Virus record (IMG/VR): IMGVR_UViG_3300029142_000001
Coordinates: 64,001 to 79,360 of that record
DNA length: 15,360 nt
Direction: 5' to 3' (one strand)
Origin: a virus
Taxonomy: Duplodnaviria > Heunggongvirae > Uroviricota > Caudoviricetes
This document shows, in pieces, positions 1 to 9,514 of this stretch. Under the pieces are notes generated by a model. It did no database searches. It saw nothing but the letters and a program-made list of their open reading frames with translations, and had not been told where the DNA came from. Within the stretch, counting starts at the first letter, position 1. Each line of letters starts with the position of its first letter. Position numbers and translations under genes: made by a program.

Positions 1-48
1 GAGTATGAATTTCAAGGTAAAAAATGTCTTGTAAAATTTAGATGGTGA
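1..48 (+). CDS. 3' end of an upstream ORF (partial; ...EYEFQGKKCLVKFRW*)
   Basis: Frame 1 is open from base 1 to TGA at 46-48; that stop lies inside the 5' acceptor strand of tRNA-His. Confidence 0.55.
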   Translation, partial: EYEFQGKKCLVKFRW

Positions 49-117
49 ATGTAGCATAAATGGTTAATGCATCCGGTTGTGACCCGGAGGAAGGCGGATC
101 GTTACCGCTCGCTCACC
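44..117 (+). tRNA. tRNA-His(GUG) with encoded G-1
   Basis: G44 = G-1 opposite C117 (C73). Acceptor GTGAATG/CGCTCAC has one A-C mismatch. D stem GCAT/ATGC, anticodon arm TCCGG-TT GTG AC-CCGGA, T arm GGCGG-ATCGTTA-CCGCT. Confidence 0.93.
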
Positions 118-164
118 CTTATAACCAGACATTCATTTGTCGCCGGATGATGTAACCGGCAAGC

Positions 165-981: not shown

Positions 982-987
982 ACAATT

Positions 988-1061
988 GCCCCTGTAGCCC
1001 AATAGGAAGAGGCGGTAGTCTTAGAAACTATCTGTTGCTGGTTCGAGTCCAGCCAGGGGTA
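988..1061 (+). tRNA. tRNA-Leu(UAG), short variable loop
   Basis: Acceptor GCCCCTG/CAGGGGT, A73; anticodon arm GTAGT-CT TAG AA-ACTAT; 5-nt variable loop CTGTT; T arm GCTGG-TTCGAGT-CCAGC. Confidence 0.93.
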
Positions 1062-1079
1062 TTATTAAAAAAGGATTAT

Positions 1080-2819: not shown

Positions 2820-3011
2820 ATGAGACAGGCACATTCAAAGAAAAAGGAAATTGAATTTACTCGTGGGAATGCTCGAATTCGTATGAGCATCACAGAAAAA
2901 AATTACAACAGAATTCTTGACATTCTAGCAGATCATGGCTATACTGATATGGAGAATATTGTAAGAAAATCAGTTGTTGTGAGAACTAGAAATATTCGAA
3001 AGAAGAACTAA
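2820..3011 (+). CDS. small basic hypothetical protein (63 aa)
   Basis: Start re-assigned from 2745 to ATG 2820, which follows AGGAG (2808-2812). Confidence 0.7.
   Translation: MRQAHSKKKEIEFTRGNARIRMSITEKNYNRILDILADHGYTDMENIVRKSVVVRTRNIRKKN
2917..2945 (+). promoter_or_regulatory. intragenic sigma70-type promoter
   Basis: TTGACA (2917-2922), 17 nt, TATACT (2940-2945), about 75 nt upstream of tRNA-Leu(UAA). Confidence 0.65.
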
Positions 3012-3022
3012 CGGACATAAAC

Positions 3023-3098
3023 GACCCGGTAGCCCAATTTGGCAGGAGGCAACAGACTTAAAATCTGTACAGTCTGGGTTCGAATCCCAGTCGGGTCA
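3023..3098 (+). tRNA. tRNA-Leu(UAA), short variable loop
   Basis: Acceptor GACCCGG/TCGGGTC, A73; anticodon arm ACAGA-CT TAA AA-TCTGT; 5-nt variable loop ACAGT. Confidence 0.93.
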
Positions 3099-3174
3099 TT
3101 TTGAAACGGAACGACATGGAGGGGTCGTAATAATAGAAAATCCAATCCCACCAGCCTCATTACTGGAAATAAAA

Positions 3175-3528
3175 ATGAGAAATTTCGCACAAAGAAAATT
3201 AAGCAAAGCAGTAGTTAAAATATTTCAAAAAAAGACAGATCGTTTTACTTTTACTCAATCTGGATCTGGCATAACTCGTTGGATTATGCATAATCCAGAT
3301 ATTCCAGAATTAACAATTCGATTTGATTCTGATATAACATGGATGGATTTTATCATACCTTTTTTCAGTCCTGATTTTTATTACAATGGAGAAATATTAA
3401 AATTTGGATATATCCAACATATAAAAATTGTTCTGACTTCTATTCGAATAAGAAATAGATTAAAATCAAAATTGCGTAGTTTACATAATATGGAACTAGA
3501 TAAAATTGTAAGATATGCAAATAGTTAA
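3175..3528 (+). CDS. hypothetical protein (117 aa)
   Basis: Fills the gap between tRNA-Leu(UAA) and the tRNA-like RNA; RBS is weak. Confidence 0.65.
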   Translation: MRNFAQRKLSKAVVKIFQKKTDRFTFTQSGSGITRWIMHNPDIPELTIRFDSDITWMDFIIPFFSPDFYYNGEILKFGYIQHIKIVLTSIRIRNRLKSKLRSLHNMELDKIVRYANS

Positions 3529-3535
3529 ATTTTGA

Positions 3536-3651
3536 GAAGTTGTGGCGGAATGGCATACGCACGGGGGCACCCGATTGACGGTTCGAGTCCGTAAAGTACC
3601 CGGCAGGGGAACATAATGGATCCATTGTAGGTTCGAATCCTACCAACTTCA
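3536..3651 (+). ncRNA. tRNA-like RNA 1 (116 nt): no anticodon loop, two T-arms, two GGCA-capped hairpins
   Basis: Perfect acceptor GAAGTTG/CAACTTC + A73, Leu-type D arm GCG-GAATGGCATA-CGC, T arms at 3578-3592 and 3627-3643, GGCA tetraloop hairpins at 3562-3573 and 3599-3608. Confidence 0.8.
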
Positions 3652-3667
3652 TTTGAAGGAAATATAA

Positions 3668-3847
3668 ATGAATTATGTAGAATGTAAAAATTGTAAAGGT
3701 AAGGGACATGTTTTAAATGGTGCAGCCGCATTTGGTCTTACTGTTTTCAGTATTTTTATTGTTCCTCTTGAAAGAAATGATCCTAATGGAGTGACGAGAG
3801 ATAAATGTTCAGCATGTAACGGTACTGGATACCGTAAATTGAAATAA
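3668..3847 (+). CDS. 59-aa microprotein with two DnaJ-type CxxCxGxG zinc-binding motifs and a hydrophobic core
   Basis: Not in the ORF track. GAAGGA at 3655-3660. Translation: MNYVECKNCKGKGHVLNGAAAFGLTVFSIFIVPLERNDPNGVTRDKCSACNGTGYRKLK*. Confidence 0.85.
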   Translation: MNYVECKNCKGKGHVLNGAAAFGLTVFSIFIVPLERNDPNGVTRDKCSACNGTGYRKLK

Positions 3848-3851
3848 TTTT

Positions 3852-3999
3852 GAGGATATAGTGTAGTGGTAGCACAATTCCAGGGTTCAGTTAGAGGTTC
3901 GATTCCTCTCTTCCTCGTTTAAAAAATGTATGGGGGAGTAGTTTAACGGGAAAACGGTTCCATCAGGTTTAAGGTCAAGTTCGATTCTTGATATCCTCG
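3852..3999 (+). ncRNA. tRNA-like RNA 2 (148 nt): two anticodon-less tRNA bodies with cross-paired acceptor strands
   Basis: Two D arms (3861-3875, 3941-3955) and two T arms (3893-3909, 3975-3991). 3852-3858 pairs 7/7 with 3992-3998; 3932-3938 pairs with 3910-3916 (5 WC + 2 GU). Confidence 0.8.
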
Positions 4000-4025
4000 T
4001 TTTAAAGTTAAATGGAGTATATCAA

Positions 4026-4124
4026 ATGCCTAGAGATCTCAGTATTGAACAGATTAGATGCTTGAACAATTGGCCACATGGAACAGTGGGAAGAAACAAG
4101 TTAAAGAAATATATGCTCCTATAG
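4026..4124 (+). CDS. possible 32-aa microprotein
   Basis: GGAG at 4014-4017, ATG 4026, MPRDLSIEQIRCLNNWPHGTVGRNKLKKYMLL*; stop lies inside tRNA-Leu(CAA). Confidence 0.45.
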   Translation: MPRDLSIEQIRCLNNWPHGTVGRNKLKKYMLL

Positions 4125-4188
4125 CCCAACTGGAAGAGGCGTTTCACTCAAAATGAAAATGTTGCTGGTTCGAGTCCAGCTAGGAGTA
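4115..4188 (+). tRNA. tRNA-Leu(CAA), short variable loop
   Basis: Acceptor GCTCCTA/TAGGAGT, A73; anticodon arm TTTCA-CT CAA AA-TGAAA; 5-nt variable loop ATGTT. Confidence 0.93.
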
Positions 4189-4215
4189 TTTTTAAATTTA
4201 CCCAGAGGAAATATT

Positions 4216-4494
4216 ATGACAACAGTAAAAGAGTTAATTGAAATTCTTAAAACACTTAATCAAGATGATATTGTGATTTTGAGTTCGGACCCAGAAGGAA
4301 ACTCGTATTCTCCTATTCATCCAGGAGTAGAAATTGACATGAAATATGCAGGCGGTCAAGTTCGTCCTGCTAAACTCACTGATCATCATAGAAAACTTGG
4401 ATACACAGAAGAAGATCTTTTTGATCCGGTTTTTGATTACGAGTATGATCCAGTTCCGGTTTCTTGTATTTGCCTGTATCCTAAATTTCATTAG
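4216..4494 (+). CDS. small phage hypothetical protein (TVKELIEIL...SSDPEGNSYSP)
   Basis: The track start at 4153 lies inside tRNA-Leu; ATG 4216 follows GAGGA (4205-4209). Confidence 0.8.
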   Translation: MTTVKELIEILKTLNQDDIVILSSDPEGNSYSPIHPGVEIDMKYAGGQVRPAKLTDHHRKLGYTEEDLFDPVFDYEYDPVPVSCICLYPKFH

Positions 4495-4502
4495 AACTTT
4501 GC

Positions 4503-4531
4503 TTGACTTTCCTTTATTCACTCACTATACT
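4503..4531 (+). promoter_or_regulatory. sigma70-type promoter followed by leader hairpin and RBS
   Basis: TTGACT, 17 nt, TATACT; then GGGA-ATAG-TCCC hairpin and AGGAG. Confidence 0.8.
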
Positions 4532-4565
4532 TGTCTCAGGGAATAGTCCCCAAAGGAGATTATCT

Positions 4566-4745
4566 ATGACATTCGTTGTTTATCAAGGTGTGAATGAGAT
4601 TATTATCACCACGGGAGAAAAAGAAAAGAGTATGTTGGCAAAATATTCGGATCGTAATTTTGAGGAAGATTATGATCGAGATGAATTTGATGATGTGACT
4701 TTAATTGAAATTAGCTCCCTTGTAAAATTGGGAATGGTCATTTAA
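4566..4745 (+). CDS. small acidic hypothetical protein (59 aa)
   Basis: Start re-assigned to ATG 4566 behind AGGAG; the track's TTG start at 4503 is the -35 box. Confidence 0.75.
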   Translation: MTFVVYQGVNEIIITTGEKEKSMLAKYSDRNFEEDYDRDEFDDVTLIEISSLVKLGMVI

Positions 4746-4774
4746 CTGATTCCAATATCCTTTTATCCATTAAC

Positions 4775-4797
4775 AATCCCCTAACGGGGATTTTTTT
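4775..4797 (+). terminator. intrinsic terminator
   Basis: AATCCCC-TAAC-GGGGATT followed by a T-run. Confidence 0.85.
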
Positions 4798-5408: not shown

Positions 5409-6332
5409 ATGACGACTGCAACTCTTTCCACCGAAACGATTTCCGAAACCATTCGCTCTGCTTTCGATTTCAGCGTTGATAAGATGCCCCTCTCCGGTCC
5501 GGATAACATGAAGACCCCTCACTATGGTCTGTTCCGTTCGGACAATATGGCAAGCGTTGGAAAGGCCGTGTCCCGCACTTACAATCCCCATACGGTCGAT
5601 GATATCTGTGCCCTTGCAGAAGCAGCTTCAGAAGCTTTTGATGGTGCTTCTTCTGTCCAGGCTCATTGGCGAGATGGTCATTACATCACTGTTGCTCCTT
5701 CCAACGATCAGCAGCGAGCAGTTTTCGATAAGCGTTTTGTTGGTGCTGGAGCCCATGAAATTCGTGATGATTCCGATATCTACATTCCTCGTCTGATCAT
5801 TCGGGCTGGATATGATGGCCGAGCATTCACTGCCCAGCTTGGTATTTACCGTCTTGTATGCCGAAACCTTGCTGTGATCCCTGTTAAGGGCAAGTCGGTA
5901 TCTGCCTCAATCCGTCATACTTCAAATCTTCAAAATCGTGTTGAATCTCTGGCAGAAGATTTCCGCTCGATTCTTGCGAATGCAGATGATGTTGCCGAGG
6001 CAATTGATCAAGCAAACCGTCAGAAGGTCGATATGGCAGCCTTTATTCGGAAGGTTTACCCTCTCCGTGATGATGCCTCTCAGCGAGTTCAGAATGCCTA
6101 TGCTGCCCGTGTGGAGGCAATCATGAGTCGTCTCTACCGCGAGCGTAACGCTCTGGGCCTTCCTTCCGAGGATTACGGCACTGCAACCGCCTGGGAAGCT
6201 TACAACGCCGTTCAGGGTCATGTCCAGCATGAAGCACGCCGGAACAAGCGTCCTAGCCAGTTTGATCGGGCTCTGATGGCCCTTGAGGATCCGGCTGTTG
6301 CACGGGCGGCAGAACTTGCCTTCACTGCCTAA
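5409..6332 (+). CDS. DUF932/DUF945-like phage-plasmid protein
   Basis: GLFRSD, YDG.AFTAQLGIYRLVCRNL, SIRHT and TAWEAYNAVQ motifs are typical of the family as recalled. Confidence 0.8.
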   Translation: MTTATLSTETISETIRSAFDFSVDKMPLSGPDNMKTPHYGLFRSDNMASVGKAVSRTYNPHTVDDICALAEAASEAFDGASSVQAHWRDGHYITVAPSNDQQRAVFDKRFVGAGAHEIRDDSDIYIPRLIIRAGYDGRAFTAQLGIYRLVCRNLAVIPVKGKSVSASIRHTSNLQNRVESLAEDFRSILANADDVAEAIDQANRQKVDMAAFIRKVYPLRDDASQRVQNAYAARVEAIMSRLYRERNALGLPSEDYGTATAWEAYNAVQGHVQHEARRNKRPSQFDRALMALEDPAVARAAELAFTA

Positions 6333-6412: not shown

Positions 6413-6429
6413 AGGTGAAGGAGAATATA

Positions 6430-7359
6430 ATGAAGCGTTCAGAAACAAAGTACAATGTTGGAGTGGTCATCGGTCGATTCCAGGTCCACGAACTTCATCC
6501 TGGACATGTAGAGCTTTTGAACTGGGTGAATGACAATCATGATACAATGATTGTCTTTCTTGGAAATTCTCCCGTTCTGAGTCGATCAAACCCTCTTCCA
6601 TATAATGCTCGTCGAATGATGATCCAAGAACAATATCCCGATGCTCTGGTACTTCCTCTGGATGATATGAGAGACGATAGGCTCTGGTCGGATCAAGTAG
6701 ATGATATGATCAGTCGGGTTGTCCGTCCTACCGAGACCGTATGCATTTACGGGTCTCGTGATAGCTTCATTCCTCACTACACTGGAAAGAACCAAACACA
6801 AGCGATGGAAGGGACCGGACATTTCTGGTCAGGATCCGAAGTCCGTGAAAAGATCGCAAACAAGACAGGAAAGAATGCAGATTTTCGGGCGGGGGCAATC
6901 TATGCTGCAAACGGAGCATATCCCCGAGTGATTCCTACGGTAGATGCGGCGGTATTTACAAAGGATGGCGATATCGTAATGGTCCGTAAGAACGGTGAAG
7001 ATAAGCTTCGATTCCCTGGTGGATATGTCGAGCCCGGATCTACATTTGCTTCAACCATTAAGAGAGAAATCCGCGAAGAGGTTGGAGATCTTGAAGTGAA
7101 TGTTTCTTATATTGGTGATCTTGAAATCGATGATTGGCGTTACCGAGGGAATCAGGATATTATTCATACTACAGTTTTCCGAGCGGATATTCTTTGGGGA
7201 GGTATTGGAAGATTCACTGATGTAGCAGAGATTGCGGAAACTGATATCGTAACTCAGACAAATCTACGACTTGGATATAGGGAATCTGTGGTTCCAGAAC
7301 ATCACGCAATTGTTGAAATGCTTATTATGGAAGGAATGCTTGATAATGAACCCGCTTGA
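6430..7359 (+). CDS. nadM: bifunctional NMN adenylyltransferase / Nudix (ADP-ribose) hydrolase, NadM-Nudix (NatV-like)
   Basis: IGRFQ, HPGH (HxGH) and NPL motifs; C-terminal Nudix box GGYVEPGSTFASTIKREIREEVG. Start re-assigned from GTG 6415 to ATG 6430. Confidence 0.92.
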   Translation: MKRSETKYNVGVVIGRFQVHELHPGHVELLNWVNDNHDTMIVFLGNSPVLSRSNPLPYNARRMMIQEQYPDALVLPLDDMRDDRLWSDQVDDMISRVVRPTETVCIYGSRDSFIPHYTGKNQTQAMEGTGHFWSGSEVREKIANKTGKNADFRAGAIYAANGAYPRVIPTVDAAVFTKDGDIVMVRKNGEDKLRFPGGYVEPGSTFASTIKREIREEVGDLEVNVSYIGDLEIDDWRYRGNQDIIHTTVFRADILWGGIGRFTDVAEIAETDIVTQTNLRLGYRESVVPEHHAIVEMLIMEGMLDNEPA

Positions 7360-8368: not shown

Positions 8369-8510
8369 TTCTGGAAAGAAACAGCTTGTAGGAATTGTGG
8401 ATAGATCAACGGAAATTCCAACTCCAACAAAAGATCAAATAGAATTGTTCGGAGTTAAAAGATATTATGTCACAGATGTATTTTGCATGGAACAGGAGAA
8501 AAATAAATGA
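8334..8510 (+). CDS. small hypothetical protein (58 aa)
   Basis: ATG 8334 behind GGGAG; its stop overlaps the next start (ATGA). Confidence 0.55.
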   Translation: MKDTKMLWREFDSGKKQLVGIVDRSTEIPTPTKDQIELFGVKRYYVTDVFCMEQEKNK

Positions 8511-9514
8511 CCATTACAAAGGAAAATAAAACAGTCGTAAAATTAATGGCCATTAGATCTAAAGATGAAATGGTTATTGCTTTTGATGGATATAATAATC
8601 GTTCTATTCCAAATTTTATTTTTAATGATGAATTGAAGGCAGAAAAGACATTTAGTAATTCGTGGTTTAAAATTCCTACATCTGAGATCAAATCTATTCA
8701 TGCTCCTGGAAAGAAGGTTATAGATTCTCAAAAATGGATTCTAAGGGATGAATCTTTGGAAAGTGCTAAAATTCCTTTGACTATTCGATATGATAAAGTA
8801 GAAATGGATGAGGATGGGGATTGGTCAGCACCTGAATATATGATGTATCAGTCGTTGTATAAGTTGGATGTCACATATAAGGAACTTTCACCAGAAGAAA
8901 TCGATTTCGAAATTAGATATATTTGTGATGATCTAAAAGAATTACCGAATGTTAGTAATTTTAAATATCCTACCGGAACAAGATGGGATAGATATGCAGG
9001 CAAGCATCATCCTACAAATATCACATACAAAGATATTGTAACTGGACCACAGGCAGCAATTTTTTATCCTGAAATTCTTCATCCTCTGCTTCCTTGTGAA
9101 TTAACACCGGAGCAATCATTCAAAATTATTCATAATTTCCTAGAAGAAAACATTGATAGATCTGTCGCATCATTCACTAGTTATGAGAATATTCAAATTC
9201 TTCATGTGAAAAAGATCATCGGATTACATACTCCATACTCTCATAAAGTGGATGTATCATCATTTCGATCTCGTAGGCCAAAATATGAAGATAGAATGGT
9301 TAAGACACGAGATAAAGAAATCTATACAATTGATGCAAAGAAGGGTGCAAATATTCCTGTATTCAGTGGAGATAGCCTAGAAGATCTTGACCGTAACATT
9401 TCTACCTATCTAAATGCGTTGATCGAATATATCAATACACCTGTTGTGGATTGCCCTACATGTGATGGATTTGGTATTGTTCATAAAGAATTCAAAGATC
9501 CTAGAGAGGAATAA
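8507..9514 (+). CDS. hypothetical protein with a C-terminal CPTCDGFG motif (335 aa)
   Basis: Long ORF, AGGAG upstream, a single DnaJ-type CxxCxGxG. Confidence 0.85.
   Translation: MTITKENKTVVKLMAIRSKDEMVIAFDGYNNRSIPNFIFNDELKAEKTFSNSWFKIPTSEIKSIHAPGKKVIDSQKWILRDESLESAKIPLTIRYDKVEMDEDGDWSAPEYMMYQSLYKLDVTYKELSPEEIDFEIRYICDDLKELPNVSNFKYPTGTRWDRYAGKHHPTNITYKDIVTGPQAAIFYPEILHPLLPCELTPEQSFKIIHNFLEENIDRSVASFTSYENIQILHVKKIIGLHTPYSHKVDVSSFRSRRPKYEDRMVKTRDKEIYTIDAKKGANIPVFSGDSLEDLDRNISTYLNALIEYINTPVVDCPTCDGFGIVHKEFKDPREE

What the first reader, a model, noticed from the sequence alone, without database searches (positions are those of the whole stretch)
3536..4188. Candidate system: tRNA-mimic cassette embedded in a phage tRNA array
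Seen: RNA 1, Zn microprotein, RNA 2, a 32-aa ORF and tRNA-Leu(CAA) are packed with gaps of 4-26 nt. The two RNAs have unrelated sequence yet share the design 'acceptor + two T-loops, no anticodon'. Established: interdigitated double T-loops in RNase P, T-box leaders and the L1 stalk bind the tRNA elbow. Inference: convergence on two T-loops suggests selection, either as multivalent tRNA mimics or as elbow-binding RNAs. The function is speculative.
Basis: inference. Interest (0 to 1): 0.75.

Follow-up and report, generated by a model that had tools for sequence, protein, structure and literature searches.

The report
Two double-elbow phage tRNA look-alikes
This phage carries two real, conserved RNA genes that each fold like a tRNA with a second tRNA "elbow" built in and cannot read codons; they belong to two separate, apparently undescribed families, but they do not form a conserved unit with the small proteins next to them.

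Summary
Both RNAs are real; the cassette is not supported.

RNA1 (3536-3651) belongs to a family of about 27 phage RNAs with strong covariation. It has a leucine-type tRNA body, a tetraloop in place of the anticodon arm, and a second T arm, loop-E hairpin and second D-type GG on the variable arm.

RNA2 (3852-3999) is two tRNA bodies with crosswise acceptor strands, two D arms and two T arms; 28 other phage sequences share this layout. Each T-loop has a D-type GG, so these look like tRNA elbows, not elbow-binding interdigitated T-loops.

None of 26 RNA1 loci carries the Zn microprotein or an RNA2-type gene. The microprotein's relatives sit elsewhere. The 32-aa ORF overlaps tRNA-Leu and has no relatives in my loci. 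Gaps of 26 nt or less are normal in this array.

Function is inferred: non-decoding tRNA-shape mimics, RNA1 probably chargeable with leucine. The closest known RNAs are T5 RNA2 (annotated, also two T arms), T5 RNA1 and YrlA. This scan reported RNA2-type RNAs before on other phages; I found no earlier report of the RNA1 family on other DNA.

The parts
3536..3651 (+). RNA1: leucine-type tRNA body without anticodon; second elbow module on the variable arm. Acceptor 3536-3542/3644-3650, discriminator A 3651, no encoded CCA
3545..3560 (+). RNA1 D arm, class II/Leu type (A14, A15, GG, A20a)
   Evidence: identity set from PMC9976931
3562..3573 (+). RNA1 hairpin H1 (4 bp plus tetraloop) in place of the anticodon arm
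   Evidence: covaries in the family
3574..3626 (+). RNA1 inner module: short stem 3574-3577/3623-3626 (weaker support), T arm 1 3578-3592, AGUA 3595-3598, hairpin H2 3599-3608, GAA 3609-3611 (loop-E / sarcin-ricin-type consensus), second D-type GG 3618-3619
   Evidence: motif name from established RNA structure knowledge
3627..3643 (+). RNA1 T arm 2, stacked on the acceptor; preceded by U48
3668..3847 (+). 59-aa protein with two CxxCxGxG motifs around a hydrophobic stretch; member of a widespread small phage protein family; not linked to these RNAs elsewhere
3852..3999 (+). RNA2: two tRNA bodies with swapped acceptor strands. Outer acceptor 3852-3858/3992-3998 plus G 3999; D arm A 3861-3875; T arm A 3893-3909; inner acceptor 3932-3938/3910-3916 plus G 3917; AU-rich linker 3918-3931; D arm B 3941-3955; T arm B 3975-3991
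3877..3970 (+). Putative joint helix of RNA2 (3877-3888 with 3957-3970) replacing both anticodon arms; irregular, with tandem U-U; inferred from the family, not shown in this member
   Evidence: shuffle p=0.60 here; 9 bp, 100% paired in the L121 subfamily
4026..4124 (+). 32-aa ORF with a GGAG ribosome site; overlaps tRNA-Leu by 10 nt; not called by the collection's gene caller, no relative in 3.1 Mb of fetched loci; doubtful gene
4115..4188 (+). tRNA-Leu(CAA), short variable arm, no encoded CCA
2917..4792 (+). Likely transcription unit: sigma-70-like promoter 2917-2945 (11/12; another at 1656-1683) to terminator-like hairpin 4775-4792
   Evidence: consensus matches only; counts near the shuffle mean

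Best explanation
The stretch holds two independent non-decoding RNA genes, each presenting two tRNA elbows, lying among small ORFs in an ordinary phage tRNA array. Shown (sequence, covariation): the secondary structures, loss of the anticodon, conservation in unrelated phages, and lack of linkage to the microprotein. Inferred from established tRNA biology: they are cut from the array transcript by RNase P and 3' trimming and receive CCA like their neighbours; each T-loop docks on a D-type GG; RNA1 is probably leucylated, because bacterial LeuRS reads A73, A15-U48, G18G19 and A20a and not the anticodon; the inner acceptor of RNA2 (7 bp, discriminator, tRNA-like trailer) may be opened to give a two-piece RNA with two acceptor ends. 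Speculative: they act as shape mimics (decoys or competitors) for host proteins that grip the tRNA elbow or acceptor end, such as CCA-end or aminoacyl-modifying toxins or uncharged-tRNA sensors, with the second elbow adding avidity or stability. They should be poor decoys for anticodon nucleases. My odds: folds about 0.9, no cassette about 0.85, decoy role about 0.4.
For: RNA1 family: on a sequence-only alignment of 18 members, 92% of cells are paired, 22 of 30 pairs have compensatory changes, 0/500 shuffles reach this and slid controls give 40-47%. RNAalifold recovers acceptor, H1, T1, H2 and T2 unaided. 26 members give the same picture (model-fitted alignment). A14A15, A20a and the second GG are in 27/27; A73 and U48 in 26/27, both exceptions being bulge mis-registers; C follows the discriminator in 26/27. 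Leucine identity rules: PMC9976931. RNA2: crosswise acceptors pair 7/7 and 7/7 against 5/7 and 6/7 for self-pairing; 0 of 992 pairs of this phage's real tRNAs pair better crosswise; -29.0 against -18.5 kcal/mol. 28 other sequences share the layout, all 7 outer acceptor pairs are compensatory, and L029 and L185 have the identical outer acceptor. No linkage. Precedent for opening a 7-bp inner acceptor: M. smegmatis YrlA (PMC4201824).
Against: The joint helix of this RNA2 is not above shuffles. The short inner stem of RNA1 is only 76-79% paired. A15-U48 is common in this phage's own tRNAs (18/32; with A73 7/32), so the leucine assignment is suggestive only. Discriminators of RNA2-type RNAs vary (G, A, C, U). 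The search patterns required T-loops and partly AGUA, so those counts are biased. Host unknown; only 37% of the genome is held.
Confidence: 0.6

Rival explanations
1. The RNAs are amino-acid carriers for non-ribosomal transfer rather than decoys: RNA1 delivers leucine to a host or phage aminoacyl-transferase, and an opened RNA2 could carry two residues.
For: Leucine identity set and C74 are conserved. Both RNA2 heads have a 7-bp acceptor, a G discriminator and a trailer like those of real tRNAs in this array.
Against: The inner acceptor is sealed by a short loop in all other RNA2-type members, and discriminators vary. No recurring neighbour ORF was seen across the RNA1 loci.
Confidence: 0.17
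2. They work like Y RNAs: structural tethers or scaffolds for a specific phage or host protein (Ro60-like or unknown).
For: The inner module of RNA2 has the YrlA order T arm - acceptor-like stem - D arm. One RNA1-bearing jumbo phage encodes a TROVE protein.
Against: No RF02553 match, no TROVE gene in the 79 kb held, no GNCGAAN0-1G motif. The TROVE gene lies 59 kb from RNA1 in G001 and is absent from two other complete genomes.
Confidence: 0.12
3. One reading: RNA1, Zn microprotein, RNA2, 32-aa ORF and tRNA-Leu form one co-functional module.
For: Adjacent and probably co-transcribed. The closest microprotein relative also lies at the end of a tRNA array.
Against: That relative follows an ordinary tRNA-Gln. 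Seven other relatives lie among small ORFs, six with no T arm in the locus and one with a single T arm about 2.8 kb away. 26 RNA1 loci have neither partner. Three complete RNA1 genomes lack the microprotein and the RNA2 pattern. Three near-complete RNA2-type genomes lack RNA1. At least three more tRNA-like RNAs are scattered through this array.
Confidence: 0.06
4. The two T-loops interdigitate, as in RNase P, T-box Stem I and the L1 stalk, and bind the elbow of host tRNAs.
For: Two T-loops per RNA; such a motif is a proposed search target in viral RNAs (PMC4919913). A loop-E motif as in RNA1 also occurs in T-box leaders (own knowledge).
Against: Each loop is a full tRNA T arm with invariant G53-C61, U54, U55, C56, A58 and its own conserved GG partner. 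In RNA2 each T arm sits in a complete tRNA body.
Confidence: 0.05
5. Decayed tRNA genes: RNA2 is two tandem pseudogenes (each half resembles a tRNA-Gly that lost a stem strand) and RNA1 is a damaged tRNA-Leu.
For: Each RNA2 half scores alone as a tRNA and keeps a TTCCA run; the joint helix is weak here.
Against: Reciprocal compensatory differences favour the crosswise acceptors. Intact D and T arms; conserved families in unrelated phages.
Confidence: 0.06

Closest known systems
Phage T5 RNA2 (NC_005859 32959-33083, 'tRNA-like stable RNA with unknown functions')
   Same: Phage tRNA-array RNA with acceptor, D-like arm and two TTCGA T arms, no anticodon. The inner T arm is nested in an extended anticodon stem and followed by a GG motif. 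Present in over 400 phage records.
   Different: Its inner head lacks a second acceptor stem and D stem. The RNA1 model gives it only 30 bits. I found no paper describing its fold.
Phage T5 RNA1 (NC_005859 30501-30644)
   Same: Leucine-type D arm, no functional anticodon, in a tRNA array, function unknown.
   Different: One T arm only; no inner elbow or AGUA/GAA module; 24 bits with the RNA1 model.
YrlA, tRNA-like Y RNA (Rfam RF02553; Chen et al. 2014, PMC4201824)
   Same: Permuted module T arm - acceptor-like stem - D arm, as in the inner head of RNA2 and loosely RNA1; a 7-bp stem can be opened by RNase P and receive CCA.
   Different: YrlA is mounted on a Ro60-binding stem next to an rsr gene; here the module is mounted on a second tRNA body. 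No model match, motif or nearby TROVE gene.
T4 RNA C and RNA D (species 1 and 2)
   Same: Stable RNAs of unknown function in a phage tRNA cluster (PMC9697503).
   Different: RNA C has one T arm, RNA D none detected.
Bacterial class II tRNA-Leu (RF00005)
   Same: RNA1 keeps the acceptor, D and T arms and the LeuRS identity set.
   Different: No anticodon loop; the variable arm carries a second T arm.
Interdigitated T-loop motif (RNase P, T-box, L1 stalk)
   Same: Two T-loops in one RNA.
   Different: The known motif is two pentanucleotide loops filling each other; here the loops are tRNA T arms with GG partners.

Membership tests
Decoding tRNA (RF00005) | 7-nt anticodon loop on a 5-bp stem | tested here: not met
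   RNA1 has a 4-bp tetraloop hairpin; RNA2 halves have 16 and 18 nt between D and T arms instead of 21-22
Decoding tRNA (RF00005) | 7-bp acceptor, D arm with GG, T arm | tested here: met
tRNA-Leu identity (bacterial LeuRS) | A73, A15-U48, G18G19, A20a, T-loop contacts | tested here: met
   RNA1 family 26-27 of 27; rules in PMC9976931; 7 of 32 ordinary tRNAs here also have A73 plus A15-U48
tRNA-Leu identity (bacterial LeuRS) | is leucylated | not testable with these tools
   needs an aminoacylation assay
YrlA Y RNA (RF02553) | match to the family model | tested here: not met
YrlA Y RNA (RF02553) | Ro60-binding motif and adjacent Ro60/rsr gene | tested here: not met
   no motif; no TROVE in the 79 kb held, genome 37% complete; 1 of 4 RNA1 genomes has TROVE, 59 kb away
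YrlA Y RNA (RF02553) | permuted T - acceptor stem - D domain | tested here: met
   inner head of RNA2
Interdigitated T-loop elbow binders | two pentanucleotide T-loops interlocking, no D-loop partner | tested here: inconclusive
   sequence favours D/T elbows, but tertiary contacts cannot be computed here
T5 RNA1 / RNA2 families | sequence and structure homology | tested here: not met
   24 and 30 bits with the RNA1 model, like ordinary tRNAs; no BLAST match
Conserved gene cassette | parts syntenic in relatives | tested here: not met
DnaJ-type zinc finger (PF00684) / anti-TRAP (PF15777) | Pfam score above the curated cut-off | tested here: not met
   24.4 against 32.7 and 17.4 against 32 bits; only the CxxCxGxG repeats are shared

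The most novel reading that the evidence does not exclude
Phages have evolved two-elbow tRNA mimics by at least two wirings (second head on the anticodon stem, or on the variable arm) as a dedicated class of anti-host RNAs. This RNA2 matures into a two-piece RNA with two chargeable acceptor ends, and RNA1 is a leucylated bivalent decoy whose loop-E hairpin adds a further protein-binding surface.
Probability: 0.15. Interest if true: 0.85.

Novelty: new variant of a known kind. Interest (0 to 1): 0.6.

Why it matters
Phage tRNA arrays hold stable tRNA-like RNAs whose role has been open since T4 RNA C/D and the T5 RNAs were annotated. Two covariation-supported two-elbow folds, missed by ARAGORN and lacking Rfam families, give specific testable models: charging, RNase P opening, elbow docking and decoy activity. 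T5 RNA2 also has two T arms, so the class can be tested in E. coli with a laboratory phage. The negative result removes the microprotein cassette as a lead.

Tried and rejected
BLAST against cultured phages found no homologue of either RNA or of three family members; the Bacillus phage PK-3 hit was an ordinary tRNA-Ala. A pattern built on this RNA2's joint strands found only tRNA-Gly. The first twin pattern was mostly ordinary tandem tRNAs. The GTDB scan for RNA1 gave three chance hits. Single-sequence folding is not significant for either RNA (z about -1); the support is comparative. The palindromic arm and cross-pairing of the two GGCA hairpins in RNA1 were rejected because they are not conserved. 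The joint helix of this RNA2 did not beat shuffles. L027 was dropped as a false twin. A protein search of viral contigs with the microprotein found nothing; the Atlas gave leads under 0.9 only. The 32-aa ORF was too short for the protein search, so only tblastn on fetched loci was done. No CCA-adding enzyme was found in the 79 kb held. Eight literature searches found no description of either fold; the library lacks most subscription papers, including older T5 work. No complex was predicted, since no protein-protein claim is made.

Full report
Setting. The window is the last 15 kb of a 79,360-base phage contig, 37% complete, with 33 tRNA genes in an array of about 22 kb. The finding lies near the end of the array. 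Three other assemblies are identical over the region.

Observation. The gaps are 16, 4 and 26 nt, and the 32-aa ORF then overlaps tRNA-Leu(CAA) by 10 nt. Such spacing is ordinary here: 36 of 57 junctions beside an RNA gene are 26 nt or less, and ORF 2086-2307 runs into a tRNA-Arg in the same way. Neither RNA folds better than its shuffles on its own, so I looked for relatives.

RNA1. Pattern scans of viral and metagenome contigs and a covariance model gave about 27 distinct members of 115-121 nt, scoring 65-127 bits against 52 or less for ordinary tRNAs. The layout is constant: acceptor, D arm, a short hairpin instead of the anticodon arm, a short stem, T arm 1, AGUA, a hairpin, GAA, a linker with a second GG, the partner strand of the short stem, T arm 2, acceptor. 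On a sequence-only alignment, 92% of cells pair, 22 of 30 pairs show compensatory change, and no shuffle or slid control approaches this. RNAalifold finds five of the seven helices unaided. The short stem is less well supported (76-79% paired, register varies). In several members it reads like a D stem whose loop has been opened to insert the T arm and hairpin, which would make the inner module a rewired tRNA core; that is inference. AGUA/GAA is the loop-E (sarcin-ricin type) consensus (own knowledge); AGUA was part of the search pattern, GAA was not part of the database scans. A14, A15, A20a, A73 and U48 are near-invariant. These are the E. coli LeuRS determinants, and that enzyme does not need the anticodon arm (PMC9976931). 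C follows the discriminator in 26 of 27, which suggests CCA completion. Members occur inside tRNA arrays or alone among protein genes. Rfam has no specific family for them.

RNA2. It is more than an acceptor with two T-loops. The 5' strand of the first half pairs 7/7 with the 3' strand of the second half, and the inner strands pair 7/7, against 5/7 and 6/7 for self-pairing. The nested fold is 10.5 kcal/mol better than two separate halves. Each half has its own D arm and T arm but only 16-18 nt where anticodon and variable arms need 21-22. Scans found 28 other sequences of this layout in about five subfamilies; whether they share descent with this RNA is not shown. All seven outer acceptor pairs covary, and L029 and L185 share the identical outer acceptor. 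In the gut-phage subfamily the two middle strands form a 9-bp helix that is 100% paired, with one compensatory and one wobble position. In this member that helix is irregular and no better than shuffles, so it is inferred. One feature is particular to this member: the inner acceptor is a full 7 bp with a discriminator and a 14-nt AU-rich linker that resembles the trailers of its real tRNAs. RNase P could open it as it does M. smegmatis YrlA, whereas other members are sealed by short loops.

Elbow or elbow binder. [quoted passage not shown] Here every T-loop is a canonical tRNA T arm and has a conserved D-type GG available. Two tRNA elbows is the simpler reading; tertiary structure was not computed.

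The cassette. The Zn microprotein has two CxxCxGxG motifs, below Pfam cut-offs, and belongs to a family of about 90 representatives. Its closest relative (71%) follows an ordinary tRNA-Gln. Seven others lie among small ORFs, six with no T arm in the locus and one with a single distant one. None of 26 RNA1 loci has the microprotein or an RNA2-type gene. Three complete jumbo-phage genomes with RNA1 have neither, and three near-complete genomes with RNA2-type genes lack RNA1. The 32-aa ORF has a ribosome site but was not called and has no relative in 3.1 Mb of loci. The same genome has further tRNA-like RNAs scattered along the array, one of them also with two T arms. The parts are therefore neighbours in a polycistronic array, not a conserved module. 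Caveat: no close but non-identical relative of this phage was found.

Mechanism. I commit to non-decoding tRNA-shape mimics, matured with the array, that engage host proteins through acceptor end and elbows. The folds are shown comparatively; maturation and leucylation follow from known enzyme rules; the decoy role is speculation (about 0.4). Rivals are amino-acid carrier, Y-RNA-like tether, cassette, elbow binder and pseudogene.

Comparison and novelty. Phage tRNA-like stable RNAs of unknown function are known. T5 RNA1 is leucine-type with one T arm. T4 RNA C and D have one T arm and none. YrlA supplies the permuted module, but membership fails on model, motif and Ro60 linkage. I found neither fold in the searchable literature. 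Earlier agents of this scan reported RNA2-type RNAs in other phages and anticodon-less leucine mimics of other layouts; these are unchecked leads, not support. My crosswise reading was noted before I saw them. Verdict: new variants of a known kind, interest 0.6; the cassette itself is not a real system on present evidence.

Noticed in passing
G000:C1:62115-62241 (1.8 kb before the window): Third two-T-arm RNA with nested acceptor strands and reduced D arms, directly behind a sigma-70-like promoter.
   Followed up: partly
G000:C1:53656-53764, 63374-63478, 63505-63600: Further tRNA-like elements with a T arm but no normal anticodon arm, missed by ARAGORN.
   Followed up: no
L352:5960-6084 (phage T5 RNA2): The annotated T5 stable RNA has two T arms, the inner one nested in the anticodon stem and followed by a GG motif; conserved in over 400 records.
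   Followed up: partly
L121:3130-3263 and about 55 related loci: Abundant two-elbow RNA in small gut phages, standing alone among small genes rather than in a large tRNA array; 9-bp joint helix.
   Followed up: partly
L050:294-425 and L080 (minus strand, about 9290 from its end): tRNA-like RNAs with three T-loop hairpins.
   Followed up: no
window 987-1062, 3023-3098, 4114-4189: All three tRNA-Leu genes lack the long variable arm (type I), while RNA1 has the class II-type D arm.
   Followed up: no
window 45-118; G000:C1:60856-60929: tRNA-His and one tRNA-Lys have an atypical T-loop (GATCGTTAC). None of the phage's tRNAs checked encodes CCA.
   Followed up: no
window 8507-9514; 6415-7359; 5409-6332: Gabija anti-defence Gad1 (E 3e-42), a cytidylyltransferase-Nudix fusion, and a DUF932 protein.
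   Followed up: no
L263:960-1304 (G000:C1:63627-63971): 114-aa ORF in the array with a weak Acb2/Tad1 sponge hit.
   Followed up: no
L339:3442-3715: In a 498-kb phage, enlarged tRNA-like RNAs lie about 1 kb upstream of a TROVE/Ro60 gene without matching YrlA at the gathering score.
   Followed up: partly
L317:2496-2714: Permuted tmRNA match 3 kb from an RNA1-family gene.
   Followed up: no
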